DNA from: Methanoculleus sp. SDB
Lineage (GTDB): Archaea; Halobacteriota; Methanomicrobia; Methanomicrobiales; Methanomicrobiaceae
DNA: 24,000 nt
Assembly: GCA_001412355.1 (NCBI GenBank)
Contig: LKUD01000033.1
Span: 39,179 to 63,178 of the forward strand
Reading direction: 5' to 3'
The notes beneath the pieces were generated by a model, which did not search any database, had not been told where the DNA came from, and saw only the letters and a program-made list of their open reading frames with translations. Made by a program: the position numbers and the translations under genes. Positions within the stretch are counted from its first letter, which is position 1. Each line of letters begins with the position of its first letter. Shown in pieces: positions 5,602 to 20,154 of the stretch.

Positions 5602-8600
5602 TCAGGTTCCGTTTACCGGACTACTCCTTTTTTTCTCAATCGCCGTTACTATCCGGTCAATAACAGGCGCACGCTTCTCATCCATCGCCGCTGCGGCCCG
5701 GAGCATAGCCACCGCGGGCTCGCCAATCTCGATCAATACCCGCTCAGCACCCATTCGTACTGCGGGTGCGGAGTCACCCAGAGTCTCGATAAGCGGTGCG
5801 ACCACCTGTGCCCCGCCGATGCGGGACATCGTCTTCATAGCGATCAGACGGACATCAATCGATTCGTCCTGAAGTGCTTCGGTGACCGGCCCGATGGCCG
5901 CCGGTCCGAGCCGGTCGAGTTCGCCCCACCGATCCTTGCCTATCAGGTAATATGCGTACTCGGTATCGTTACCCGCCTCCCATCCAAGCTGATCGAGCGC
6001 CTCGGCGACACCCTGCTTAAACTCTTTCTCGCCGTATTTCAGCGCATTGACGAGATGGTCCTGCGGGATACCCGAGGGATCCCTGAGGGCTTCGAGTGCA
6101 ACGTGCCTGACCCGGTAGTCGACATCGTTGAGAGCCTGTATCAGCGGTTCGATTGCCCGCCGATCCCCGATATATCCTAGCGAGTGGGCAGCGGCCATCT
6201 GTACCTCCTCGTCACGGTCACGGAGGGCGACAATAAGCGGATCGATCGAGCTCCGGTTGCCCATATACCCGAGTGCCTCGGCAATGACCGCACGCACCCG
6301 GTAATTCCGTTCCGTATTCATCGCCTCGATCAGGGCGTCGATAGATCGCTCGTTCCCGATCTTGCCGAGATTGCGTGCCGCCACCGTCCTCACGAACGTA
6401 TTATCGTCCCGGAGTGCGTTCATGAGAGGATCGACGGCAACCTCCCGCATCTCTCCGAGCAGCTCCGCAGCCGCCTTTTTAATTTCACTATCCTCGTTTC
6501 TCAACGCACGGATGAGCCCTTCGACCGCCGGCCTGCCCATCATCATCAGCCGCATCGAGACAGCCACCTGGGAGGTTCCGTTGCGATCTTTCAGGGCGAT
6601 AATCAGGTTTTCAATCTCCTGAGCTCCGTCCTTGTCGAACTCTTTCGCGTCGTTCTCTTCCATCGCACCGATCAGCTGCGGCTGCTCTTCCTCGACCTCC
6701 ACCCGCTTCATCCACGCATCACGCCAGACGTTGAGGATTTCGCGCTTTTTCATGACGCGTGCCGCCTTATCGCGGACCTCCTCGTCGGGATCCTGCATAG
6801 CGATCAGGATGGCCTCCTCGGCCCGGTGATCGTAAATCGTCCCGAGGGCATCGAGCGCGGCAAGGCGCTCCTTTAAAAGGCCTTTTTTCAGCACCCATGT
6901 CAGCGGCATGATGGCAGGGACTCCAATCTCGGACAGTGCCTGCGAAACCCCCCAGCGCACCTCCGCCACGTCGTCCCCGAGGTGTTCGATCAGGGCGGGG
7001 ATGGATTTGATATCGGCGAGCTTTGCAAGCGCACGGGCGGCACTGATTCGTACCAGGGCATTTGAGTTCTCCAGCGCTTTTAAGAGGGGAGTGAGTGCCG
7101 CAGTGCCGAATTCCACCAGCGCATCCGCGGCCGCGAAACGTACGCCGTTGTACTCGTCACTGAAGAGCTCCACGAGAAACGGTATTGAAAGCGGATTTTT
7201 CAGGCTCCCGAGGGAGAGAGAGGCGGAGATGCGTACATCCTCATAGGGATCGCGGAGCACCTGAATGAGAGGACCCACGCCCTTCTGGCTTCCCATCTCC
7301 CCGAGCGCATCGGAAGCCGCAAGCCGCACGGTGTACGTCTCGTCCTGCAACGCTTTGATCAGGTATTCAATCGCCGGATCACCCATTTCACGAAGCGATT
7401 CGATTGCGGTGGCACGTATCGACTCATCCCGCGATTTTAAGGCGCGGAGCAGCACTTCAACGGGGTCCTCCTTCACTGCGGGATCCTCGCCGGTGAAGGT
7501 TATCGATGTGTGCGAGTCGTAATCGATGAGATCGGCCGGCCCTTCCGCACGAGCGGCGGCTGGCGTGGCCCATACATCGTCGGCGTCTTCCGCCTCCGCA
7601 CGGGCCCGTTCCTGCGCGGCAGCCATCTCCTCCCTCTCAATCGCGGAAAAACGTTCCTTCAGGAATGTTTCCATCCCGCGAATGTCTTCAGGCGTCGGTT
7701 CGGCACCCTCCGCCGGCTTCACCGAAGGCTCCGGCTTTTCCGCACGCTGCCGTTTCCGCTCGGCTGCTGCAAGCCCTTCGTTCACTTTTCGTTCGCTCTC
7801 GGCAATCATCTGCCGGAGCTCTTTCTGCTCTGCCGGACTGGGAACCTGCTTCGGGAAGGGAGGCCGGGCATCCTCCGTTGCTTTGCCGGGACGAACCGGG
7901 AGTCTGCCCTCCAAAATCCGCTGCTCATCGAATTTTTTTCGGGCGCCCATTGAATCATCGTACTCGCGCCTGAACGTCTCCGAATCGGCGACACTCTTGC
8001 GTGCGAGGGTGGATTCCTCCTCGTTTTTCTTTTTTATCGAAGAAATCGCCCGGCGGGCCGACTCTTTCCGGACCGAATCCTGAACTGAGAGGGCGGCCAG
8101 CAGCGCTTCATGTGCGGGATTACCGATCTTCCGGAGTGCTTCCACGGCACCCAGCCGGACACCCGAATGGGCTTCCTGCAGTACCTCGATGAGCGGCTGA
8201 ATCGCGGGTTTGCCTAAGCTGGCAAGCTCGTTCCACTGCTCTTTGGCGATCAGGTACCGGATCTGCTGCCGGGCGTTCGCCGGCTTCCACCCGAGCCGGT
8301 CCAGTGCCCAGGCCGCCTCCATCCTCACCTGAGGATAGGAATCATCCAGCACCGCCATCAGATCGGGGAGTGCCCGGTTATCGCCCAGTTCCCCGTACGA
8401 CTCCGCCGATGCGGCGCGTACGTGGGCATCGTCATCAGAAAGCCCCTTCTGCAGAACCGGGATGGCGCGAAGATCATGAATCCTCCCGAGCGACCGGATG
8501 GCGAGTATCCTGACGCCGGGATCCGGATCGCCTGCCGCCTCAAGAAGAACGGGAACAGCTGCCTTTTTCAGCTTCACGCATTCTTTCCACTCCTCGCGGA

Positions 8601-9144
8601 TACAGAAGAGGTATGCCTTTTCGGTGTCGTCCTCCGGTTCCCATCCTGTCCGCGCCAGCGCATTGCCGGCTTCACGCCGGACGTCGCGGTTACTGTCGGA
8701 GCTGAGATGGCGAAGGGCGAGCAGTGCGTCCATATTTTTCTTTCCCAGGGACCCGAGCATGATCGCTGCCCCCTTCCTGACCGATGCAGATTCGTGCATA
8801 AGTGCCGGGGTGATCGCCTCAAATGCCGGCGTGCCGAGCCGTGCGACATCATCCGAAATATCTGCCGCAACCTCCCCGGGCACCTTCCCCACGAGATGCA
8901 GGAGAGCAGGAAGTGCCGGAAGGCCGGGTGACGAGAGTGCATGGGCGAGACCGGACGAACCGGAACCGCCGGAGAGGCGGGCTACGACGGCCCGGATCGC
9001 AGGCGCACCGAGAGAAAAGAGTGCGGTGGCAGCCCCGGGATGGTATTCGGTATCCGCTCCTGAAAGAATGTTCAGGAGACCGTCGATGTCCCCTGCATCC
9101 TTCAGTTTCCTGATATCCGGTGCAGATCTGCCAAAAAACGCCAT
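5602..9144 (-). CDS. Large HEAT-repeat (PBS-lyase HEAT-like) protein, ~1180 aa
   Basis: Track ORF is 5602..9516. I trimmed it to ATG 9142-9144 (MAFFGRSAPDIRKLKDAGDIDGLL) because the upstream 124 codons overlap the FTR gene and are Arg/Pro-rich. It contains dozens of ~31-aa repeats of the type D..VR..AA.ALG.iGd..Ai.pLi.aL.D. A charged low-complexity linker is encoded at about 7500-8035. Confidence 0.9.
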   Translation of the reverse strand: MAFFGRSAPDIRKLKDAGDIDGLLNILSGADTEYHPGAATALFSLGAPAIRAVVARLSGGSGSSGLAHALSSPGLPALPALLHLVGKVPGEVAADISDDVARLGTPAFEAITPALMHESASVRKGAAIMLGSLGKKNMDALLALRHLSSDSNRDVRREAGNALARTGWEPEDDTEKAYLFCIREEWKECVKLKKAAVPVLLEAAGDPDPGVRILAIRSLGRIHDLRAIPVLQKGLSDDDAHVRAASAESYGELGDNRALPDLMAVLDDSYPQVRMEAAWALDRLGWKPANARQQIRYLIAKEQWNELASLGKPAIQPLIEVLQEAHSGVRLGAVEALRKIGNPAHEALLAALSVQDSVRKESARRAISSIKKKNEEESTLARKSVADSETFRREYDDSMGARKKFDEQRILEGRLPVRPGKATEDARPPFPKQVPSPAEQKELRQMIAESERKVNEGLAAAERKRQRAEKPEPSVKPAEGAEPTPEDIRGMETFLKERFSAIEREEMAAAQERARAEAEDADDVWATPAAARAEGPADLIDYDSHTSITFTGEDPAVKEDPVEVLLRALKSRDESIRATAIESLREMGDPAIEYLIKALQDETYTVRLAASDALGEMGSQKGVGPLIQVLRDPYEDVRISASLSLGSLKNPLSIPFLVELFSDEYNGVRFAAADALVEFGTAALTPLLKALENSNALVRISAARALAKLADIKSIPALIEHLGDDVAEVRWGVSQALSEIGVPAIMPLTWVLKKGLLKERLAALDALGTIYDHRAEEAILIAMQDPDEEVRDKAARVMKKREILNVWRDAWMKRVEVEEEQPQLIGAMEENDAKEFDKDGAQEIENLIIALKDRNGTSQVAVSMRLMMMGRPAVEGLIRALRNEDSEIKKAAAELLGEMREVAVDPLMNALRDDNTFVRTVAARNLGKIGNERSIDALIEAMNTERNYRVRAVIAEALGYMGNRSSIDPLIVALRDRDEEVQMAAAHSLGYIGDRRAIEPLIQALNDVDYRVRHVALEALRDPSGIPQDHLVNALKYGEKEFKQGVAEALDQLGWEAGNDTEYAYYLIGKDRWGELDRLGPAAIGPVTEALQDESIDVRLIAMKTMSRIGGAQVVAPLIETLGDSAPAVRMGAERVLIEIGEPAVAMLRAAAAMDEKRAPVIDRIVTAIEKKRSSPVNGT

Positions 9145-9295
9145 TCCGCGACATCCTCCCGGCGCACACCGGCGGGTGTAAAAAAACAGACCGGGCTGTG
9201 CGGCGGATATGTAAATTACTGTTGTCGGGGGAGTATCTTGAATATTCTGTTCGGGGACTGTGGAGAACGGAGCGAGCCTACCCCGCACGCACGGC

Positions 9296-9808
9296 TCAGA
9301 AAAACTTTCTGAACCTCTCCCCCGTCGCATGGCAGATCGGGCAGTGTTCGGGAGGAGCGTTCCGTGCGCAGATGTACCCGCAGACCGGGCAGCGCAGGAC
9401 GGGGTATGCGAGTTTCCGGGGCACATCAGTCTCCTGCGGGCGAACGAATCCGGACCGTTCTGATGCTGCAGGCCGCCGTTCCGGAATGGGGGCCGCTTCG
9501 GCACGACCCTCAGCAATCATGTCGGAGACATACAGGGCACAGTAACACGATCCGTATTCGGCAAGATCGGGATCACGATAATCGCAGGGACAGACGATAT
9601 CCAGATCGTCCTCCCTCTTTCCTGCCGCACGCCGGCAGGGGCACGCCTGATACCCGTATCGTTTCTCATTTGCTATCAGGCCCCGGACAAGATGGCGGGT
9701 AACGGACATATCGGGATTCAGGTGGTACCCGGAATGTTCAGCCTCGTTCCGGAGACGCGCCACACGCGCCGAAATTTCATCCTCACTGACGTCAGGCAGT
9801 TTCTTCAT
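9296..9808 (-). CDS. Ferredoxin:thioredoxin-reductase catalytic-subunit-like protein fused to a C-terminal rubredoxin domain
   Basis: Track ORF of 170 aa. The FTR-type Cys pattern is ACPCRR...VCPCDYRDPDLAEYGSCYCALY (CPC...CPC...CxC). The C-terminal rubredoxin knuckles are CPVCGY...CPICHA. Confidence 0.88.
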   Translation of the reverse strand: MKKLPDVSEDEISARVARLRNEAEHSGYHLNPDMSVTRHLVRGLIANEKRYGYQACPCRRAAGKREDDLDIVCPCDYRDPDLAEYGSCYCALYVSDMIAEGRAEAAPIPERRPAASERSGFVRPQETDVPRKLAYPVLRCPVCGYICARNAPPEHCPICHATGERFRKFF

Positions 9809-11173: not shown

Positions 11174-12197
11174 GCCTGAGGATTGGTATATTCGCCCCGC
11201 ATCCGGCGCAATTCGTCCCGTCAAGCTGCCGGAAATGCACCGAATATCCCGCCCTTTCGATAAGGAGCTCCCCGCAGTCGGGGCAGTACGTGTGCTCGTA
11301 CGGATGGCTGAAGACATTTCCCATATAGACATACCGCATGCCGATCTCCCGGGCGCGATCGCAGATCTTCTCCAGCAGCTTCACCGGAGTGGCGGGACGA
11401 TCCGTCATCTTGTAATCCGGGTGAAATGCCGTGAAATGCATGGGCGTGTCCGGGCCGAGCGTATCATATGTCCACCTGATAAGGGCATCCGTCTCCTCGG
11501 GGGAGTCATTCAGCCCGGGTATCACGAGAGTCACGGTCTCGATATGCATCCCGAGTTCATGCGCACGGACCGTGGCGTCCAGCACCGGCTGGAGGTGCGC
11601 CCCGCAGATTTTCCGGTAAAACGGGTCTGAAAACGCCTTGATATCCACGCGGAACGCATCAAGCATGGGGGAGAGGGAGGTGAGAGCCTCCTCCGTGATG
11701 TATCCGTTCGTTACATAGACCGTCCCGAGACCCCGCTTGCGTGCGAGTGCGCCCATATCGCTCGTATACTCGTGCCAGATCGTGGGCTCGTTATAGGTCC
11801 ACGCGATGCTGGCACAGCCGTTTGCCAGGGCACGTGTCACACCCTCGTCGGGCTGGAGATCACGAAGCGCGAAATCCTCAAACGAGGCTGCCGAGATGTG
11901 CCAGTTCTGGCAGTGGCGGCAGTGAAAATTGCATCCGACGCTTCCGAGGGAATATGACGTGGTTCCCGGCAGATAATGAAACAGGGGTTTTTTTTCGATC
12001 GGATCGATCGCCTCCGCACTGATCTTTCCGTAGGTCGCTGCATAGAGGATTCCCTGCCGGTTCAACCGGACGCCGCAGATTCCGTGCCCTCCCTCCCGGA
12101 TTGTGCACCGGTGGCTGCACAGCGAGCACTGCACCGTCGTTCCTTCGAGAACCGAATACTGCGTTGCCTCATGCATCGAATCGCGGTCAGACGTCAC
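11163..12197 (-). CDS. AmmeMemoRadiSam-type radical SAM enzyme (PflA-like activase fold)
   Basis: Track ORF of 344 aa with a GTG start at 12195-12197 preceded by GAGGAGG. The radical SAM cluster motif is CNFHCRHCQNW, and there is an N-terminal auxiliary Cys motif QCSLCSHRCTIREGGHGICGVR. The C-terminal CPDCG...CAGCG pattern is typical of this family. Confidence 0.9.
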   Translation of the reverse strand: MTSDRDSMHEATQYSVLEGTTVQCSLCSHRCTIREGGHGICGVRLNRQGILYAATYGKISAEAIDPIEKKPLFHYLPGTTSYSLGSVGCNFHCRHCQNWHISAASFEDFALRDLQPDEGVTRALANGCASIAWTYNEPTIWHEYTSDMGALARKRGLGTVYVTNGYITEEALTSLSPMLDAFRVDIKAFSDPFYRKICGAHLQPVLDATVRAHELGMHIETVTLVIPGLNDSPEETDALIRWTYDTLGPDTPMHFTAFHPDYKMTDRPATPVKLLEKICDRAREIGMRYVYMGNVFSHPYEHTYCPDCGELLIERAGYSVHFRQLDGTNCAGCGANIPILRHVG

Positions 12198-12373
12198 AAC
12201 GAATCCTCCTCATTCTTTCCCTGTGCGTTCGCACCTCTCTCCTCCGTATCGCGATCGTCCTCAACAACGAGAGCCCCCTCGTATCCGCACTGCTTGCACC
12301 GGTAGAGCATGCCGGTGTACCCGCCCGCAACGAGATACATTTCAGTGCTCCCGCACACAGGACAGCAGATCAT
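12194..12373 (-). CDS. 59-aa zinc-ribbon protein (unlisted in track, just under its length cutoff)
   Basis: Manual translation gives MICCPVCGSTEMYLVAGGYTGMLYRCKQCGYEGALVVEDDRDTEERGANAQGKNEEDSL. It has two CxxC knuckles and an acidic tail. Its TGA overlaps the GTG start of the radical SAM gene (GTGA at 12194-12197), suggesting translational coupling. Confidence 0.6.
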   Translation of the reverse strand: MICCPVCGSTEMYLVAGGYTGMLYRCKQCGYEGALVVEDDRDTEERGANAQGKNEEDSL

Positions 12374-12436
12374 ATGAGTGTCTGAATGAAAGCAACCGAC
12401 AAAAAAGTATCTTTCCGGGGTGGTCGCCGCCGCGCC

Positions 12437-14086
12437 TTACGGCGTCTCGAGTTCGCGGAACCGGAAAACCACACGCCAGTCCTGCTGTTCGCGAAGCGTG
12501 ACCTCATCGGCGGCCTCCAGCGCTTCCACGAGCGATCCGATTGTGCGGACCCGTTTGATCTGCAGGCCGATAATCGAGAGATGGCGGACCATATGCGCAT
12601 ATCGTTCGGAATTACGGAGATATTCGCGTTTAATCCTGATTGCGCCAAGTGCGGCCGCCACTGCAGGGAAGATGATCGTCAGCACGGCAAGGAGAGAGGA
12701 CGTGTCACCGTGGCCGACGGCCCAGATATGATCAAGGCCGTAGGCATGCATCGCCGCAAAAACAAGCGTCAGGGTAAAGAGCGTATTTCCTGCCTGCGAC
12801 AGAATTTCATGCCTCTGGCGGTTCCATCCGCTCATCGTCGTATAACTGGAAATCTGGTCGTCGATCCATGCGGAGATGATGAAATTTTTCAGCTCCTCAA
12901 ACGGCGGGGTGAGCTCGCAGTACAGCTGAGGTCGCGTCTCGAGGATCCGCGTGAACGCCGCTTCGATCCAGTCGTTCGGAGTATGGGAAAGCATCGGTTT
13001 CATGGCAGGATCCGGCGTTTCCGCCCGCACGCAGAAGAGCGAGAGGAAAAGAGCAGTCCTGAGCCTTTCGGAGAGGAACCGGTAATCCATCCATTTCCGG
13101 TGCCAGTCACCGAGACGGGACGCAATGAGAAGCACGAGAACCGTACCCATCTCCGCCACTTCGATCCAGAGTAGCTCTAAAAAATCGGGAAAGAAGAGTG
13201 TCTGGATTGCTACAGTCGCAACCGCCGCCGCTGCAAGTGCGTACACGAGCGAGCCGGCACGCATATATCTCCGTTCATACCGCTTCGTCAGGAGAACGGT
13301 GCGGGAAAAATGCGGAAGGAGTGTTTCGGCAAGGGGACGGATAACCACAGGATCCAACCCGAATATTCTGGCTTTTTCGGTAAACCTGCCGTAGATATCC
13401 CTGCACAGGCCTGTGATCTCTCCCCCGCCTACGGTTTCTCCGTTAAAGCTGTTCAGATACTCGAACGATTCGAGGATTCCATCACCATGGCGCTCTTCCA
13501 TGACCTTACCGGTCGTCAGATCGATCCAGAAGAGTGTCCGGCCGACCATGCGGGCATACTTGACCATGTCTGCCGTACCGCCGGGGATGCGGGCAGGTTT
13601 TCCATCCCAGATAGCGACGAGCACATCGCAGTACCGGACGATTGCATGCCCGACCTCTTCACAGGCACCTCTCCTGTCCGTATCTTCCGGCACCATCACT
13701 TCGACGGAGGAAGCCCGGTCCACGAGTGACCGGCACGCTTCACGCGAAGCATGCGTGGAGCATTCGGCGATATACTCGTCGACTTTCATCGGAAGGAAAA
13801 GCCGCAGTTCGGCGTCGCTCGCCATGCCGCGTCCGGGCCAGGCGAGCACCTCTCCGGAAAGGAGCCGATCGCCGCCCTCCGTAAGAGAGGAGATGGCGGC
13901 ATACCGGTGAGGAGTGTCGCGAAGGATCTGATCAAGGCGCTCCAGAACCTGCCGGATCGCCGCTGCCACCTGCTCTTCATCGGCAAGCGTCCGCTGGCCG
14001 GTGACTCCGATCCTGACCGTCGCCGGAACACGGAACCGGTCTTGTGCAGGACCGGATTTTGCGGATGATGTTTTCATTGCCATCAA
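12437..14086 (-). CDS. SLOG-like Rossmannoid domain fused to two tandem SLATT/DUF4231-type 2TM modules (predicted nucleotide-sensing membrane effector)
   Basis: Track ORF of 549 aa. The N-terminal ~200 aa read RIGVTGQRTL...SSLTEGGDRL...CDVLVAIWDGKPARIPGGTADMVKYARMVGRTLFWID, a LOG/SLOG/deoxyribosyltransferase-like pattern. Next come two TM helices (SLVYALAAAAVATVAIQTLFF, LLWIEVAEMGTVLVLLIASRLG) plus DWHRKWMDYRFLSERLR. A second module follows: WIDDQISSYTTMSGWNRQRH plus TMs TLFTLTLVFAAMHAYGL and LLAVLTIIFPAVAAALGAI. The ORF itself is confident; the function is inferred. Confidence 0.85.
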   Translation of the reverse strand: MMAMKTSSAKSGPAQDRFRVPATVRIGVTGQRTLADEEQVAAAIRQVLERLDQILRDTPHRYAAISSLTEGGDRLLSGEVLAWPGRGMASDAELRLFLPMKVDEYIAECSTHASREACRSLVDRASSVEVMVPEDTDRRGACEEVGHAIVRYCDVLVAIWDGKPARIPGGTADMVKYARMVGRTLFWIDLTTGKVMEERHGDGILESFEYLNSFNGETVGGGEITGLCRDIYGRFTEKARIFGLDPVVIRPLAETLLPHFSRTVLLTKRYERRYMRAGSLVYALAAAAVATVAIQTLFFPDFLELLWIEVAEMGTVLVLLIASRLGDWHRKWMDYRFLSERLRTALFLSLFCVRAETPDPAMKPMLSHTPNDWIEAAFTRILETRPQLYCELTPPFEELKNFIISAWIDDQISSYTTMSGWNRQRHEILSQAGNTLFTLTLVFAAMHAYGLDHIWAVGHGDTSSLLAVLTIIFPAVAAALGAIRIKREYLRNSERYAHMVRHLSIIGLQIKRVRTIGSLVEALEAADEVTLREQQDWRVVFRFRELETP

Positions 14087-14182
14087 GGGGAAATTCAGCA
14101 GTTCTTATAAGCATATCGTTTTCGAGCACCCGCTTCTCCATCTTATAGACATATATGGAAAGGGTGACAATCACTAGGTGAG

Positions 14183-14936: not shown

Positions 14937-15011
14937 GGGGCAGTAGGGTAGCCTGGTCCATCCTAGAGCGTTTGGGACGCTTTGACGGCAGTTCGAATCT
15001 GCCCTGCCCCA
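14937..15011 (+). tRNA. tRNA-Pro (anticodon UGG)
   Basis: The cloverleaf was folded by hand. Acceptor GGGGCAG/CTGCCCC; D arm with A14, G18G19 and A21; anticodon stem GAGCG/CGCTT with loop TT-TGG-GA. The variable loop is TGAC, the T arm is GGCAG-TTCGAAT-CTGCC and the discriminator is A. There is no encoded CCA and no intron. Confidence 0.93.
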
Positions 15012-15016
15012 TTTTC

Positions 15017-15703
15017 ATGCAGCGGTCCGAAGCCTGCACGGTCTATCGCATTCTCCGGGAGTATTATGGTGTCACCCGCTCTTCAGAGCGCCATTTTCTC
15101 GATTTTAAAAACCCGTTCGAGATTCTTGTCATGACCATCCTCTCCGCACAGACGACGGACCGGACGGTTAACGCCGTAAAGGACACGCTGTTTCACCGGT
15201 ACCCGGATCCCGCCGCACTCGCCCGGGCCGATCCCGCCGAGGTGGAACGGATTATCAGGAGCACCGGGTTTTTCCGGGCCAAGGCGAGGAATATCATACG
15301 GGCGGCAGGTATTCTTGAAAGCCGCCATGGCGGAAACGTCCCGTCCTCAATGGACGAACTCCTTCTCCTGCCCGGAGTGGGAAGGAAGACGGCAAATATC
15401 GTGCTCCACCATGCCTATGACATAACCGCGGGAATTGCCGTCGACACCCATGTAAAGCGCGTTTCCACTCGTCTCGGCTTCACCGAAAAAACAGACCCCG
15501 ACGAGATCGAGAAAGACCTCACAGTCCTTTTTCCCAGAAAGGCATGGAGTGAGATCAATTATCTCTTCATCAGGCACGGGCGCAGTATCTGCGATGCAAA
15601 AAAACCGAGGTGCACGGAATGCCCCGTTTCGGGGCACTGCCGGTACTACCTGTCCGGACGGTCAGGGGATGAGGGACGTATACATGAGATAACAGCCCCA
15701 TGA
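15017..15703 (+). CDS. nth: Endonuclease III (DNA glycosylase/AP lyase)
   Basis: Track ORF is 14972..15703. The start was moved to ATG 15017 because earlier codons lie inside the tRNA. Motifs: FEILVMTILSAQTTD, HhH-GPD LPGVGRKTANIVL, and the FeS cluster loop CDAKKPRCTECPVSGHC. Confidence 0.92.
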   Translation: MQRSEACTVYRILREYYGVTRSSERHFLDFKNPFEILVMTILSAQTTDRTVNAVKDTLFHRYPDPAALARADPAEVERIIRSTGFFRAKARNIIRAAGILESRHGGNVPSSMDELLLLPGVGRKTANIVLHHAYDITAGIAVDTHVKRVSTRLGFTEKTDPDEIEKDLTVLFPRKAWSEINYLFIRHGRSICDAKKPRCTECPVSGHCRYYLSGRSGDEGRIHEITAP

Positions 15704-16840
15704 CACCACCGCCGAAGCGGGCAGCGTGATCACCCATGCAGCGACAATTTCACGGACAATCCCCCATTTCACGGCCGAATATCCGCGGGTTGCCCCGACC
15801 CCCATGATCGCCCCGCTCATGGCATGCGTGGTCGAGACCGGGACACCCAGCGCGGTCATCAGCGACAGCACCCCGCCCCCCGCAGTCGAAGCGCAAAATC
15901 CCTGATACGGCCTGATTTTCGTTATCCCCGTTGCCATCTTCTTGACCACCCTCCAGCCGCCGAAGAGCGTGCCGAGTGCGATGGCAAGACAGGAGACCAG
16001 AATTACCCAGAAAGGAACGGAAAAATCGGTGAGAAAACCCCCGGCGACGAGCATTGCCGTAATGACACCCATCGCGTTCTGTGCGTCGTTCGAACCGTGG
16101 CCGATTGCCTGAAAGGATCCCGCGAAAATCTGGAGGGGTTTGAAGGCACGGTTCAGGCGGGCGGGATGGACTTTCCGGAACCATCGCATGATGATAATGC
16201 CGAAAAAGAATGCGGAGAGGAAACCGAGCATTGGGGAGACCACGATAAACACCAGGACGGCGAGGATCCCCTTCACCGTGATAACACCCGGGATGATCAG
16301 CAGCGGCACGATAAGTGACATTCCCGCCAGAAATCCGGTCCCGAGAGTATCCCGGAGCGGGTTTCCCCGGTGAAGATTGAACGCCGTGTATACGGCGGCA
16401 CCCGCCACTCCGCCAATCACCATATACGCGAGCAGCGCCGTGACGGTCCCGATATCGGGCCACAGTATGGAAGCCGCCCCGCCTGCACCGATACCCGCAC
16501 CCACCAGCCCGCCGACGAGCGCATGGCTGCTTGAAACGGGAATCCCGAAATATGACGAGAGAAACACCCAGAGTACGGCACCGATAAGGCCCGTCAGCAG
16601 GAGGTGGGGGGTGAGGAAACCGGGATCGACGATACCCTTTCCGATCGTTGTTGCAATCGCCGTCGAGAAGATAAAAGGCCCGACAAGGTTGAATATCGAG
16701 GCGAGCAGGACGGCACGTAACGGTGAGAGGGCCCGCGTGGCGACGATGGTCGCGATCGAATTAGCCGCATCGTTCAGCCCGTTGACAAAATTGAACAGGA
16801 GGGCGATAAAAATCCCGGCGGCGATGATGACAATCTCCAT
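15662..16840 (-). CDS. Inorganic phosphate transporter, PiT family
   Basis: Track ORF of 392 aa. It is polytopic with the duplicated PHO4 signature (NGLNDAANSIAT and GHGSNDAQNAMG). The 3' end overlaps nth convergently. Confidence 0.93.
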   Translation of the reverse strand: MEIVIIAAGIFIALLFNFVNGLNDAANSIATIVATRALSPLRAVLLASIFNLVGPFIFSTAIATTIGKGIVDPGFLTPHLLLTGLIGAVLWVFLSSYFGIPVSSSHALVGGLVGAGIGAGGAASILWPDIGTVTALLAYMVIGGVAGAAVYTAFNLHRGNPLRDTLGTGFLAGMSLIVPLLIIPGVITVKGILAVLVFIVVSPMLGFLSAFFFGIIIMRWFRKVHPARLNRAFKPLQIFAGSFQAIGHGSNDAQNAMGVITAMLVAGGFLTDFSVPFWVILVSCLAIALGTLFGGWRVVKKMATGITKIRPYQGFCASTAGGGVLSLMTALGVPVSTTHAMSGAIMGVGATRGYSAVKWGIVREIVAAWVITLPASAVVSWGCYLMYTSLIP

Positions 16841-16846
16841 GGCGGT

Positions 16847-17518
16847 TCACGTATGTCTGATTGCGATGTCGGAAAGCACGTTCGCCGCATCTTCGCACTT
16901 GTCCGTCGCCATCTCGAGATTCCCGTAGATGTCCTTGAGCTTGATGATCTGGATGGCGTCATCCGAGTGGAAGAGTTTACGGAGTGCATGGCCCAGCACA
17001 TCGTCCGCGAGGTTTTCGAGGCGGTTGACCTCAATGCATCGTTCTTCAATATTCTTCGCGTTTTTCATGTTGCGAACACTGTTCACGGCACTCTCCAGTT
17101 CGGTTACCGAGAAAAGGATGAGTTTTGCGAGTTCGACCATGTATTCGTCCGATTCCGCGATGTCATAGACGTACATCTGCCTCGCCGTGCCGTCGATATA
17201 ATCCAGAATATCGTCCAGTGCCGAAGCGAGCCGCGAGATCTCCTCGGGTTCGAGCGGCGTGATGAACGTCCGGTTGAGGAGTTCGTAGATTGAGTGGGTG
17301 ATCTGGTCACCTTTGTGCTCAACCTGCTTCATCTTATGGCACTTGTTCTTGATATCCTGATAGTCTTCGACCAGAACGACAAGCTGTTCGGCGGCTATTC
17401 GCACGTTAGCCGCAAGCTCCTCGAAGAGATCGAAAAAAACCTTGTCCTGCGGGACAACCCACTCTTTGATCCCCACAACGCACCACGGTAGGATTGGTGC
17501 GGCAGAGTCATAAACCAT
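16847..17518 (-). CDS. DUF47 / PhoU-like phosphate transport regulator
   Basis: Track ORF of 223 aa, 7 nt upstream of the PiT gene, which is the usual pairing. The family N-terminus is normally M-G-x-KEW..P....FF.L. An internal GTG at 17474-17476 (giving MGIKEWVVPQDKVFFDLFEE) is therefore a plausible true start. Confidence 0.88.
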   Translation of the reverse strand: MVYDSAAPILPWCVVGIKEWVVPQDKVFFDLFEELAANVRIAAEQLVVLVEDYQDIKNKCHKMKQVEHKGDQITHSIYELLNRTFITPLEPEEISRLASALDDILDYIDGTARQMYVYDIAESDEYMVELAKLILFSVTELESAVNSVRNMKNAKNIEERCIEVNRLENLADDVLGHALRKLFHSDDAIQIIKLKDIYGNLEMATDKCEDAANVLSDIAIRHT

Positions 17519-19451: not shown

Positions 19452-20154
19452 TTATTCACCAGATACTATCGACAGCGCCTTGCGGGCGGCTTCCGTTGCG
19501 GCTTCCCGTTTCGTGGAACCGGATCCTTTTGCAATTTTTTTATCCCCGAGAGAGAGTTCTGAAATCCATTTTTTCTGATGATCAGGGCCTTCCCAGGAGT
19601 AAATGTAATTCAGTTCACCCGGTGCATGCTTCGCGACATATTCCTGAAGTCTGCCTTTATAATTTCCATCCGGATTAAAATTCTTAATTTCATCACGAAA
19701 CATACCAAGAATGACTTCACGCGCTTTTTCCAATCCTTCAGCACATCCAAGCGCACCGATAAACGCTTCAAAGGCATCAGCAATGATTTTGTCAGTAAGC
19801 CCCGTCCCTTTCCCCAGCACTATGACCTCGTCAATTTTCAGATCATTTTTCATGACGATATCAGCCGGATTTGTATTTTCCGTCACCCTCATCCTGACAT
19901 TCATCTCACCGGGGCTATAGTCCGTCGATTCATACAGGTGCCTGGCAATAATATAATCAAGAAAATAATTTCCACAAAACTCCAATCTCTCATAATCCTC
20001 GCAAAAAAAGATTTTTCTGTTTCATTTCTTCGGCGAACGAACTGTGCGTGAGAGCACGGTCATTGAGTCCGAGAGATTCATCATGAGATGTGTCAATTCT
20101 GAATTTCGGCCCGTGGAGAATATCGAGTATCTGCTGTCTCCGCGATTCTTCCAT
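19452..20154 (-). pseudogene. rnc: Ribonuclease III gene interrupted by a +1 frameshift in a T7 run
   Basis: Manual translation from ATG 20152-20154 gives MEESRRQQILDILHGPKFRIDTSHDESLGLNDRALTHSSFAEEMKQKNLF, an RNase III N-terminus (ALTHSS). The frame breaks at the coding-strand T7 run (plus-strand A7 at 20003-20009). The next frame, which includes track ORF 19452..19985, continues CEDYERLEFCGNYFLD...ADAFEAFIGA plus a dsRBD (GPDHQKKW...GSGSTKREAATEAARKAL). The span is 703 nt, and removing one T restores a 233-codon ORF. Confidence 0.8.

What the first reader, a model, noticed from the sequence alone, without database searches (positions are those of the whole stretch)
12437..14086. Stand-alone SLOG-like sensor fused to two tandem SLATT-type 2TM modules: candidate nucleotide-gated membrane-disrupting effector in an archaeon
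Seen in sequence:
- One 549-aa polypeptide has an N-terminal Rossmannoid region with the pattern G-x-TG (RIGVTGQR), GGDRL, and D-x-LVAIWDG...PGGTADMVKYA...TLFWI.
- Two consecutive modules follow. Each has two TM helices plus an amphipathic W/R-rich helix (DWHRKWMDYRFLSERLR; WIDDQISSYTT...RIKREYLRNSERY).

Established knowledge: this resembles the SLOG (SMF/DprA-LOG) sensors and the SLATT/DUF4231 2TM effector domains defined by comparative genomics (Aravind and co-workers). There, SLOG-SLATT fusions are proposed to be nucleotide-activated pore-forming suicide effectors in conflict systems. To my knowledge none has been characterised experimentally in archaea.

Inference:
- It sits as an apparently independent transcription unit. 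A T6 run lies 31 nt after its stop, and it shares a divergent promoter region with pyrH.
- It is embedded between housekeeping genes, like an inserted defence or stress gene.
Basis: partly seen in the sequence, partly recalled or inferred. Interest (0 to 1): 0.72.

Follow-up and report, generated by a model that had tools for sequence, protein, structure and literature searches.

The report
Orphan SLOG–SLATT membrane effector gene
This methanogen gene encodes a predicted nucleotide-sensing domain fused to four membrane helices. It belongs to a large family that, in bacteria and some other archaea, sits next to TIR immune-signalling genes. Here it has no such partner nearby and has been inherited at a fixed housekeeping locus. 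The architecture was already predicted in the literature, so this is an ordinary member of a known kind with an unusual genomic setting.

Summary
**Observation: confirmed.** Window 12437-14086 (-) encodes a 549-aa protein. It is 100% identical to a hypothetical protein of Methanoculleus sp. SDB.

**Domains**
- The N-terminal α/β domain is a YpsA-clade SLOG domain. Its best solved-structure matches are YpsA, DprA and the ThsA SLOG domain. A profile-profile comparison with Pfam-validated YpsA proteins gave E = 1e-26.
- Two SLATT-clan 2TM modules follow. The first resembles DUF4231/SLATT_3 and the second resembles SLATT_1.

**Family and context**
- The family is large: 3,824 representatives at E ≤ 1e-30.
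- In 16 of the 35 near-full-length loci compared, a TIR-domain gene lies within 6 kb. Other loci carry RyR-domain genes. This is the layout of Thoeris-type signalling.

**The window's clade**
- The Methanomicrobiales clade is monophyletic and has no TIR gene nearby.
- Within it, the window's sub-clade keeps the gene between pyrH and a radical-SAM gene.
- The gene is under purifying selection (dN/dS about 0.2).
- It keeps the SLOG pocket motifs, with a fixed His→Gln change.
- It is absent from the same junction in another Methanoculleus genome.

**Most likely function (inferred):** a nucleotide-gated membrane effector that has been separated from its signal generator.

**Novelty:** a new member of a known, computationally predicted kind. 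A 2025 preprint already lists a "SLOG and 4TM" effector as an unvalidated Thoeris candidate.

**Interest:** moderate to low.

The parts
12437..14086 (-). Whole ORF: 549 aa from TTG 14086, or 548 aa from ATG 14083; stop TAA at 12437-12439. It encodes the SLOG–SLATT–SLATT protein.
   Evidence: ORF and translation. (P0001, 100% identical, Methanoculleus sp. SDB). (dN/dS 0.205 against L008).
13487..14029 (-). YpsA-clade SLOG sensor domain, residues about 20-200. Motifs: GVTGQR (27-32), EGGDR (70-74, the GxD signature), CDVLVAIWDG (153-162) and GGTAD (169-173).
   Evidence: 7-stranded α/β model. (Foldseek: YpsA 2nx2 at E 4e-5 and target TM-score 0.72; DprA; ThsA SLOG 7uxs). (hhalign against YpsA-family proteins: probability 99.7%, E 1e-26). 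(motif conservation).
13322..13477 (-). Helical linker, residues about 204-255. This is the most variable part of the protein.
   Evidence: helices 204-216, 221-241 and 250-254. (highest dN of any segment).
13031..13321 (-). SLATT module A (DUF4231/SLATT_3-like), residues about 256-352. It comprises a lead-in helix, TM1 (278-299), TM2 (304-325) and the amphipathic helix DWHRKWMDYRFLSERLR.
   Evidence: DUF4231 at 270-345, E 0.28. (SLATT_3, E 0.17). (this module taken alone hits DUF4231 or SLATT_3 in 10 of 10 members, 5 above Pfam's cut-off; the window's own score is 15.8 bits)..
12902..13030 (-). Cytoplasmic connector between the two SLATT modules, residues 353-395. Residues 361-367 have low model confidence.
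12452..12901 (-). SLATT module B (SLATT_1-like), residues about 396-545. It comprises a lead-in helix, TM3 (425-447, weakly hydrophobic), TM4 (463-484), the REYLRNSERY helix and the C-terminal helix ending QDWRVVFRF.
   Evidence: Pfam SLATT_1 at 409-537, E 0.0036, 17.8 bits against a cut-off of 26.3. (NCBIfam SLATT_1, E 6e-10, 39.1 bits against 41). (30 of 36 family members hit SLATT_1, best 2e-11)..
14087..14182 (.). 96-bp divergent spacer shared with pyrH. A TATA-like TTATAA lies at 14105-14110 (- strand), 22-27 nt upstream of the ATG at 14083. This fits a leaderless or short-leader archaeal transcript (inference).
   Evidence: sequence. (pyrH identified as AA_kinase). No transcript data are available.
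12401..12406 (-). T6 tract starting 31 nt after the stop. It could be an archaeal oligo-T terminator. It also lies only 27 nt upstream of the next ATG (12373), so it could instead belong to that gene's promoter.
   Evidence: sequence. (the bacterial-type hairpin terminator scan found none).

Best explanation
The gene encodes a cytoplasm-facing YpsA-clade SLOG sensor fused to two SLATT 2TM modules, giving four TM helices with both termini inside the cell. It belongs to a large family that is patchily distributed across bacteria and archaea.

In most family members the gene lies beside TIR-domain genes, and often beside RyR-domain multidomain genes. This is the layout of Thoeris-type immune signalling.

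Proposed mechanism (inferred):
1. An ADP-ribose-derived or related nucleotide binds the SLOG pocket, which is formed by the G-x-T-G loop, the GxD motif and the WDG…GGT loop.
2. Binding switches the SLATT modules into an oligomeric, membrane-permeabilising state.
3. The cell is depolarised, and growth stops or the cell dies.

In the Methanomicrobiales lineage that includes this window, the TIR partner is no longer adjacent. The gene has settled between pyrH and a radical-SAM gene and is maintained by purifying selection. Its pocket is intact but altered (GVTGHR→GVTGQR).

It is therefore an orphaned effector. Its signal must come either from a generator encoded elsewhere in the genome or from an endogenous nucleotide.

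Shown here: domain identities, family context, loss of linkage, conservation and selection. Inferred: ligand binding, gating and membrane damage.
For: **Fold and homology of the sensor**
- Foldseek's top solved-structure hits are YpsA 2nx2 (E 4e-5, target TM-score 0.72), H. pylori DprA, and the BcThsA SLOG domain bound to 3'cADPR, 7uxs.
- hhalign of the domain profile against viral proteins gave probability 99.7% and E 1e-26, with the motifs in register. Five of those nine proteins pass Pfam's YpsA cut-off.
- The GxD/E signature that PMC6459960 calls the predicted substrate-binding site of the YpsA clade is present as G71-G72-D73.

**SLATT modules**
-.
- The model is confident (pLDDT 88.9, pTM 0.87).
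- The positive-inside rule gives an N-in/C-in four-TM topology.

**Family context**
- A TIR HMM finds a TIR-domain gene (E < 1e-5) within 6 kb in 16 of the 35 near-full-length loci used for the tree.
- Single-linkage clustering of neighbours put TIR and RyR-domain proteins together in 21 of 44 loci that hold a family member.
- Pfam confirms TIR_2 fused to TPR, WD40, FGE-sulfatase, periplasmic-binding or TM regions. It also confirms TrkA_N–RyR, AAA–RyR and RelA_SpoT–TPR–SLOG–RyR proteins.

**Literature**
- SLATT is predicted to be a nucleotide-responsive pore-forming effector.
- TIR plus a SLATT effector is validated as type VII Thoeris, signalling through cADPR.
- A "SLOG and 4TM" effector is listed as a Thoeris candidate.

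**Orphan status and maintenance**
- No TIR gene was found in the window or in any Methanomicrobiales locus.
- The TIR-less clade is monophyletic on a neighbour-joining tree.
- Synteny is conserved.
- dN/dS is 0.08-0.21 overall and at most 0.34 for the SLOG domain.
- The pocket motifs are retained.
Against: **No partner and no direct functional evidence**
- No signal generator is encoded in the 24-kb window.
- PADLOC has no matching model.
- Nothing here shows ligand binding or membrane damage.

**Weak direct profile scores**
- The window protein's own SLATT scores are below the curated cut-offs: 17.8 against 26.3 bits, and 39.1 against 41 bits.
- Its SLOG domain is not hit directly by any Pfam or PDB sequence profile.

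**Experimental record for this architecture**
- The only tested TIR + "SLOG and 4TM" operons gave no phage defence in E. coli. I could not verify that they are homologues of this protein.

**Signs of a non-defence role**
- Stable placement among housekeeping genes, with divergence tracking PyrH, looks more like a resident physiological gene than a defence-island gene.
- In sister TIR-less lineages (M. taiwanensis, L015, L007) and in the TIR-less Terriglobia the SLOG motifs have degenerated while the SLATT motifs stay intact. The membrane part may therefore work without the ancestral ligand.

**Other**
- One orthologue carries an in-frame TAG.
Confidence: 0.55

Rival explanations
1. Domesticated channel or regulator. 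After losing its TIR partner, the protein was co-opted in Methanomicrobiales as a resident membrane protein. It would be gated by an endogenous metabolite or nucleotide, or be ligand-independent, and would serve stress physiology rather than antiviral suicide.
For: - The chromosomal position among housekeeping genes is fixed in at least 7 genomes.
- Divergence parallels that of PyrH.
- G+C content is normal.
- Purifying selection acts on the gene.
- The His→Gln change in the G-V-T-G-H-R pocket loop is fixed across the clade.
- Sister lineages lose the SLOG motifs but keep the SLATT motifs.
- Phosphate-transport and PhoU genes lie nearby in both archaeal contexts. This may be coincidence.
Against: - The gene is absent from the same junction in another Methanoculleus genome, and one orthologue carries a nonsense codon. 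It is therefore dispensable.
- No conserved operon partner suggests a pathway.
- The pocket motifs other than His31 are unchanged from TIR-linked relatives.
Confidence: 0.25
2. Still a working defence effector, served in trans. A TIR gene, or another nucleotide-signal synthase, elsewhere in the genome supplies the ligand. The system would then be a split Thoeris-like system.
For: - The sensor motifs are intact and under purifying selection.
- In some bacterial relatives the TIR gene lies 2-5 kb away rather than adjacent, so tight linkage is not obligatory.
- Effectors that respond to the same signal can be mixed within one operon (preprint).
Against: - No TIR gene lies within ±6-10 kb in any of about 10 Methanomicrobiales loci.
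- I could not search the rest of these genomes.
- Defence genes usually cluster, and no defence or mobile-element gene is in this window.
Confidence: 0.15
3. Membrane-anchored enzyme. The SLOG domain would be catalytic, for example a LOG-like N-glycosidase acting on a nucleotide, rather than a sensor. The TM region would only tether it to the membrane.
For: - Some SLOG clades are enzymes.
- The GGT-A-D/E loop superficially resembles the LOG PGGxGTxxE motif (my own knowledge; not tested here).
Against: - The best fold and profile matches are to the YpsA clade and to sensor-type ThsA and DprA, not to LOG.
- The TM region is a conserved double SLATT effector, and it is the most constrained part of the protein (dN/dS 0.06-0.15). 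A simple anchor would not be.
Confidence: 0.04

Closest known systems
"SLOG and 4TM" candidate Thoeris effectors (bioRxiv 10.64898/2025.12.03.692087, Table S2; Streptomyces sp. GKU 895 and Ca. Nitrospira nitrosa COMA1)
   Same: The described architecture is the same: a SLOG sensor plus four TM helices. The TIR-adjacent context matches what I find for most bacterial members of this family.
   Different: The window gene has no TIR neighbour. It is archaeal and sits at a conserved housekeeping locus. The preprint's two systems gave no defence in E. coli. I could not obtain their sequences, so homology to this family is assumed from the description and was not tested.
Type VII Thoeris effector ThsH (TIR + SLATT, signal cADPR; same preprint)
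   Same: It is a SLATT-domain membrane effector activated by a TIR-made ADPR derivative, and is predicted to oligomerise in the membrane.
   Different: [quoted passage not shown] The window protein instead has a dedicated SLOG sensor and two tandem SLATT modules. No ThsH sequence was available for comparison.
Type I Thoeris ThsA (SIR2–SLOG)
   Same: A SLOG domain senses a TIR product, 3'cADPR. The ThsA SLOG structure 7uxs is a fold match at probability 0.99.
   Different: The output domain is a SIR2 NADase rather than a membrane module. The window SLOG domain is closer to YpsA (target TM-score 0.72) than to ThsA (0.39).
YpsA family (Pfam PF06908; B. subtilis YpsA, PDB 2nx2)
   Same: It is the best fold match and shows profile-level homology. 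The G-x-T/S-G-H-R-P-type loop, the GxD/E motif and the C-D-x-L-x-A-x-W-D-G…GGT motifs are shared.
   Different: YpsA is a stand-alone soluble protein that inhibits cell division. The Pfam YpsA model does not detect the window domain directly.
SLOG–SLATT fusions of Burroughs et al. 2015 (NAR 43:10633)
   Same: The idea is the same: a nucleotide sensor fused to a 2TM pore-forming effector in conflict systems. Later papers from the same group restate it.
   Different: The paper is not in the held library, so this comparison rests on my recollection and on citations in later papers. It is a computational prediction only.

Membership tests
SLOG superfamily, YpsA-like clade | Rossmannoid α/β fold shared with YpsA, DprA and LOG | tested here: met
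   AlphaFold2 model at pLDDT 88.9. Foldseek against PDB: YpsA 2nx2 at E 4e-5, target TM-score 0.72 and rmsd 3.5 Å over 183 columns; DprA 5mll and 4ljk at probability 1.0; ThsA SLOG 7uxs at probability 0.99.
SLOG superfamily, YpsA-like clade | Direct match to a curated SLOG-clan sequence profile (Pfam YpsA, cpYpsA, DNA_processg_A, LDcluster4 and so on) | tested here: not met
   There was no SLOG-clan hit for the window protein at E ≤ 10. Profiles of the family against PDB sequences found only spurious hits. A relative reached cpYpsA at only E 0.08.
SLOG superfamily, YpsA-like clade | Profile-profile homology to validated YpsA-family proteins | tested here: met
   hhalign of alignment A2 against 9 viral proteins gave probability 99.7% and E 1e-26 over 149 columns. 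Five of the seven that were scanned pass Pfam's YpsA cut-off at 54-65 bits against 27.7. Caveat: the viral set was found by similarity to the query.
SLOG superfamily, YpsA-like clade | GxD/E signature and glycine-rich loops of the predicted nucleotide pocket | tested here: met
   G27-V-T-G30, E70-G-G-D73-R, W160-D-G and G169-G-T171 are present. They are invariant or nearly invariant in the family. The motif is defined in PMC6459960. His31 is replaced by Gln in this clade.
SLOG superfamily, YpsA-like clade | Binds a nucleotide or ADPR-derived ligand | not testable with these tools
   This needs binding assays on the purified domain.
SLATT clan (SLATT_1-6, DUF4231) | Match to curated SLATT or DUF4231 profiles above their cut-offs | tested here: inconclusive
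   Window protein: Pfam SLATT_1 17.8 bits against 26.3; NCBIfam SLATT_1 39.1 against 41 (E 6e-10); DUF4231 15.8 against 24.7. Family: 30 of 36 members hit SLATT_1 (best 2e-11) and 16 of 36 hit DUF4231. Module A taken alone hits DUF4231 or SLATT_3 in 10 of 10 members, 5 above the cut-off.
SLATT clan (SLATT_1-6, DUF4231) | Two-TM hairpin flanked by cytoplasmic helices | tested here: met
   There are two such units, at helices 256-351 and 396-542. For hydropathy and K/R distribution. TM3 is weak (best 19-residue Kyte-Doolittle window 1.39). Direct hhalign of module A against module B is only weak (E 1.5e-3, probability 17%).
SLATT clan (SLATT_1-6, DUF4231) | Genomic association with a nucleotide-signal generator (SMODS/CD-NTase, TIR) | tested here: not met
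   None was found in the window or in about 10 Methanomicrobiales loci. The feature is met for the wider family: a TIR gene lies within 6 kb in 16 of 35 near-full-length loci.
Thoeris-type TIR signalling system | TIR-domain signal-producing gene in the same operon or locus | tested here: not met
   A TIR HMM search of all ORFs of at least 70 aa in the window and the Methanomicrobiales loci found no hit. The window is therefore not filed as a Thoeris system.
Thoeris-type TIR signalling system | Effector with a dedicated sensor domain for the signal plus a toxic output domain | tested here: met
   The protein has a SLOG sensor and a double SLATT output. Toxicity itself is inferred.
Thoeris-type TIR signalling system | Recognised by a defence-system model library | tested here: not met
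   PADLOC-DB v2 gave 0 families at E ≤ 10.
Thoeris-type TIR signalling system | Protects against virus infection | not testable with these tools
   The literature reports no defence in E. coli for two "SLOG and 4TM" operons. There are no archaeal data.

The most novel reading that the evidence does not exclude
In a Methanomicrobiales lineage, a former Thoeris-type SLOG–SLATT suicide effector has been domesticated. It has been vertically inherited at the pyrH locus for a long time without a TIR partner. Its retuned pocket (His31→Gln) would now sense an endogenous nucleotide, and the protein would act as a physiological ligand-gated membrane channel. Sister lineages that lost the pocket altogether would then represent a further, ligand-independent step. 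This would be a natural series showing an immune effector turning into a housekeeping membrane protein in archaea.
Probability: 0.2. Interest if true: 0.65.

Novelty: new member of a known kind. Interest (0 to 1): 0.35.

Why it matters
TIR-derived nucleotide signalling (Thoeris) is expanding quickly in bacteria. It is barely explored in archaea, and the SLOG-plus-4TM effector type has not been shown to work experimentally.

This locus offers a compact archaeal representative with a confident structural model. It also provides a natural comparison set:
- TIR-linked relatives with the canonical pocket.
- A TIR-less clade with a retuned pocket.
- TIR-less lineages with a destroyed pocket but intact membrane modules.

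That series could be used to ask what ligand the YpsA-type SLOG domain recognises. It could also show how binding is transmitted to SLATT helices, and whether orphaned immune effectors are kept for defence in trans or are co-opted.

The protein itself is one of thousands of similar sequences and fits an existing prediction. The gain is incremental unless the co-option scenario proves true.

Tried and rejected
**Searches that found nothing useful**
- Direct Pfam and NCBIfam detection of the SLOG domain failed.
- Sequence-profile searches of PDB, with both the whole-protein and the SLOG-only alignment, gave only spurious hits to TraI, ORC2 and a serpin. The SLOG assignment therefore rests on fold comparison and on a transitive profile-profile link.
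- PADLOC returned nothing.
- A second word-indexed homologue search, using the alignment, returned essentially the same 56 proteins. It did not reach named Streptomyces or Nitrospira proteins.
- The bacterial-type promoter and terminator scan is uninformative for an archaeon.

**Tools and sources that were unavailable**
- Burroughs et al. 2015 is not in the held library.

**Ideas tested and dropped**
- Internal duplication: hhalign of SLATT module A against module B gave only weak support (E 1.5e-3, probability 17%). I do not claim a recent tandem duplication.
- TIR–SLOG–SLATT fusions: the 700-750-aa family members have N-terminal extensions with no Pfam TIR hit.
- Virus-borne copies: viral contigs carry only SLOG-only relatives and no SLOG–SLATT protein.

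**Readings rejected**
- A decaying pseudogene. dN/dS is about 0.2 in every domain.
- A recent horizontal insertion or defence island. G+C content is normal. No integrase or defence neighbours are present. The tRNA-Pro gene lies on the far side of pyrH.
Full report
**1. The observation**

The ORF at 12437-14086 on the minus strand is real. It is 549 aa from a TTG start, or 548 aa from the ATG at 14083. It is 100% identical to a hypothetical protein of Methanoculleus sp. SDB.

The T6 tract lies at 12401-12406, 31 nt after the stop. pyrH is divergent across a 96-bp spacer. The gene's G+C content (0.56-0.59) matches its surroundings.

It is a coding gene, not a chance ORF. About 55 full-length homologues exist in the word-indexed database. 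An exhaustive profile search finds 3,824 50%-identity cluster representatives at E ≤ 1e-30, and the best 150 all align over the full length. Against an 84%-identical orthologue, dN/dS is 0.205 with dS 0.41.

**2. What the protein is**

AlphaFold2, run with a 36-sequence alignment, gives a confident model (pLDDT 88.9, pTM 0.87). It has a seven-stranded α/β domain at residues 22-198, followed by long helices.

*The N-terminal domain is a YpsA-clade SLOG domain.*
- Foldseek against solved structures puts B. subtilis YpsA first (2nx2; E 4e-5; target TM-score 0.72). H. pylori DprA follows, and then the BcThsA SLOG domain bound to 3'cADPR. All three are members of the SLOG superfamily.
- Direct sequence profiles do not detect the domain.
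- A scan of viral contigs recovered small proteins of 150-170 aa that resemble residues 20-190. Five of the seven scanned pass Pfam's YpsA cut-off.
- hhalign of the family's SLOG profile against nine of these proteins gives probability 99.7% and E 1e-26.
- The motifs align in register: GVTGHR with TGHRP, EGADR with GxDQ, then CDVLIAIWDG, then GGT.
- The GxD/E motif is the predicted substrate-binding signature of the YpsA clade (PMC6459960).

*The C-terminal region holds two SLATT-clan modules.*
- Module B (about residues 396-545) matches SLATT_1: Pfam E 0.0036 and NCBIfam E 6e-10. Both scores are just below the curated cut-offs. Thirty of 36 family members hit SLATT_1.
- Module A (about residues 256-352), taken alone, hits DUF4231 or SLATT_3 in 10 of 10 members tested. 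Five are above the cut-off.
- Hydropathy and the positive-inside rule give four TM helices with both termini in the cytoplasm. TM3 is only weakly hydrophobic.
- The two modules are too diverged to show a clear mutual match.

**3. Context in this window**

The neighbours are housekeeping genes:
- an ABC transporter, MntP and a 1,304-aa HEAT-repeat protein;
- a ferredoxin-thioredoxin reductase-like gene, a glutaredoxin, a Mut7-C gene and a radical-SAM gene;
- on the other side pyrH, tRNA-Pro, endonuclease III, PiT and PhoU_div;
- further out a CdhD-like gene, RNase III and a nitroreductase.

PADLOC finds nothing. No TIR gene, other signal synthase, integrase or transposase is present.

**4. Context in relatives**

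I fetched 69 genome loci and further contigs, then clustered the neighbouring ORFs.

*TIR and RyR neighbours dominate.*
- Single-linkage clustering put TIR and RyR-domain proteins together in the largest cluster, present in 21 of 44 loci that hold a family member.
- A TIR HMM finds a TIR-domain gene (E < 1e-5) within 6 kb in 16 of the 35 near-full-length loci used for the tree.
- Pfam confirms TIR_2 domains fused to TPR, WD40, FGE-sulfatase, periplasmic-binding or TM regions.
- It also confirms three recurrent RyR-domain proteins: TrkA_N–RyR, an AAA–RyR protein of about 860 aa, and RelA_SpoT–TPR–SLOG–RyR.

*Distribution is patchy.* It covers Dehalococcoidia, Anaerolineales, Eubacteriales, Gemmatimonadota, Acidobacteriota, Methanoperedens, Methanobacteriaceae, Methanocella, Heimdallarchaeota and Methanomicrobiales.

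*The Methanomicrobiales copies form a TIR-less clade.* On a neighbour-joining tree they form one clade, placed among TIR-linked lineages. No TIR gene is found in any of their loci.

*Synteny.*
- In the window's sub-clade the gene always sits between pyrH and the radical-SAM gene. This holds for 7 loci at 58-84% protein identity.
- Its divergence roughly follows that of PyrH: 83, 72, 71, 71 and 65% for PyrH against 70, 59, 61, 60 and 58% for this protein.
- M. taiwanensis and M. frigidifontis carry the gene at a different but mutually conserved site.
- A widespread "unclassified Methanoculleus" genome has an empty junction. Its radical-SAM gene and pyrH are 172 bp apart, with no remnant of the gene.
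- One orthologue has a single in-frame TAG in place of Trp.

The gene is therefore accessory at depth, but it is a long-term vertical resident in this lineage and not a recent insertion.

**5. Sensor-pocket evolution**

The motif table shows three states:

| Lineage | Pocket motifs | SLATT motifs |
|---|---|---|
| TIR- or RyR-linked members | Almost all GVTGHR / PLAEGADR / WDG / GGT(A/Q)E | Conserved |
| The window's clade | GV(T/S)GQR / SLxEGxDR / WDG / GGTx(D/E)M; the glycines and the acidic residue are kept, with His→Gln fixed | Conserved |
| Other TIR-less lineages (M. taiwanensis group, L015, L007, three Terriglobia) | Degenerate | Essentially unchanged (HRKWIDYRFLAERLR, REYLRNSERY) |

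All segments of the window's gene are under purifying selection. The SLATT modules are the most constrained, at dN/dS 0.06-0.15.

**6. Mechanism**

The best-supported reading is a ligand-gated membrane effector. A nucleotide, ancestrally a TIR-made ADPR derivative, binds the SLOG pocket. Binding switches the SLATT modules into a membrane-permeabilising oligomer.

The following are shown here:
- the domain identities;
- the TIR and RyR linkage in relatives;
- the loss of that linkage in this clade;
- conservation and purifying selection.

The following are inferred:
- ligand binding;
- gating;
- membrane damage.

The source of the signal in this archaeon is unknown. Three rival readings remain: domestication as a physiological channel, a trans-encoded generator, and a catalytic SLOG domain. 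They are weighed in the Rival explanations section.

**7. Comparison with what is known**

- SLATT was predicted to be a nucleotide-responsive 2TM pore-forming effector, as restated in PMC7159879 and PMC9503650. The original 2015 paper could not be read here.
- A December 2025 preprint validates TIR plus a SLATT effector as type VII Thoeris, signalling through cADPR.
- The same preprint lists a "SLOG and 4TM" effector as a candidate type. Two such operons gave no defence in E. coli.
- I could not obtain those sequences, so identity with this family is likely but untested.
- The window gene fails the defining Thoeris feature of an adjacent TIR gene. I therefore file it as an orphan SLOG–SLATT effector that probably works like a Thoeris effector, not as a Thoeris system.

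**8. Verdict**

This is a new member of a known, predicted kind, and interest is moderate to low (0.35). The most novel reading still open is domestication of an immune effector in methanogens, with probability about 0.2.

Noticed in passing
window 12194-12373 (-): A 59-aa zinc-ribbon ORF (MICCPVCGSTEMYLVAGGYTGMLYRCKQCGYEG…) starts 63 nt after the SLOG–SLATT stop codon. Its TGA overlaps the GTG start of the radical-SAM gene (GTGA), which suggests translational coupling. It is conserved only in the two closest syntenic genomes (L008, L004). It is absent from the empty-site genome L077, which has an unrelated 42-aa ORF in that position.
   Followed up: partly
L010 6676-6678 (= L078), Methanoculleus sp. 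SpSt-1212: The orthologue carries a single in-frame TAG where relatives have Trp (ARM*GL against ARMWGL), which splits it into 241-aa and 289-aa ORFs. This could be real pseudogenisation or an assembly error in a metagenome-assembled genome.
   Followed up: partly
L016 7584-12119; L019 2229-4724; L025 6669-9365; L018, L022, L024, L026, L029, L031, L036, L039, L041: Three kinds of RyR-domain proteins recur next to family members in bacteria and Methanobacteriaceae: TrkA_N–RyR (about 620 aa, with N-terminal TM helices), an AAA–RyR protein of about 860 aa, and RelA_SpoT–TPR–SLOG(LSDAT_prok)–RyR (about 830 aa). They often occur together with TIR genes. This suggests a larger multi-gene nucleotide-signalling system than a two-gene Thoeris.
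   Followed up: partly
L001/L003 (M. taiwanensis, M. frigidifontis); L015; L007; L035, L037, L043: In these TIR-less lineages the SLOG pocket motifs are degenerate (for example GVIGHV / SCIDEAFE), while both SLATT modules keep their signature helices. The membrane part appears to be maintained without the canonical sensor.
   Followed up: partly
window 15662-17518; L001/L003 7782-13620: Both archaeal genomic contexts of the gene have phosphate-homeostasis genes within a few kb: PiT plus PhoU_div here, and AbrB–PhoU, PhoU and pstB/pstA in M. taiwanensis and M. frigidifontis. This may be coincidence.
   Followed up: no
P0211, P0225, P0228, P0242, P0272: Some family members are 700-750 aa long. 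They have an N-terminal extension of about 190-230 aa that gives a second match to the family profile but has no Pfam hit. It may be a duplicated or divergent SLOG domain. It is not a TIR fusion.
   Followed up: partly
window 5602-9516 (-): A very large (about 1,300-aa) HEAT/PBS-lyase-repeat protein. It is conserved in the syntenic genomes and also in the empty-site genome L077.
   Followed up: no
window 19452-19985 (-): An ORF with a bacterial-type RNase III domain plus a dsRNA-binding motif. To my knowledge this is uncommon in archaea.
   Followed up: no
window 14937-15011 (+): A tRNA-Pro(UGG) gene lies between pyrH and endonuclease III. The mechanically listed endonuclease III ORF (14972-15703, TTG start) overlaps it, so the true start is probably further downstream. 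Orthologues are 215-222 aa.
   Followed up: no
L080-L109 (viral contigs): Many phage contigs encode small YpsA-family SLOG proteins with the same CDxLxAxWDG…GGT motifs. In L094 the SLOG-like stretch lies inside a single open reading frame of about 3,500 codons. This fits the published idea that phage SLOG proteins counter ADPR-derived immune signals.
   Followed up: no
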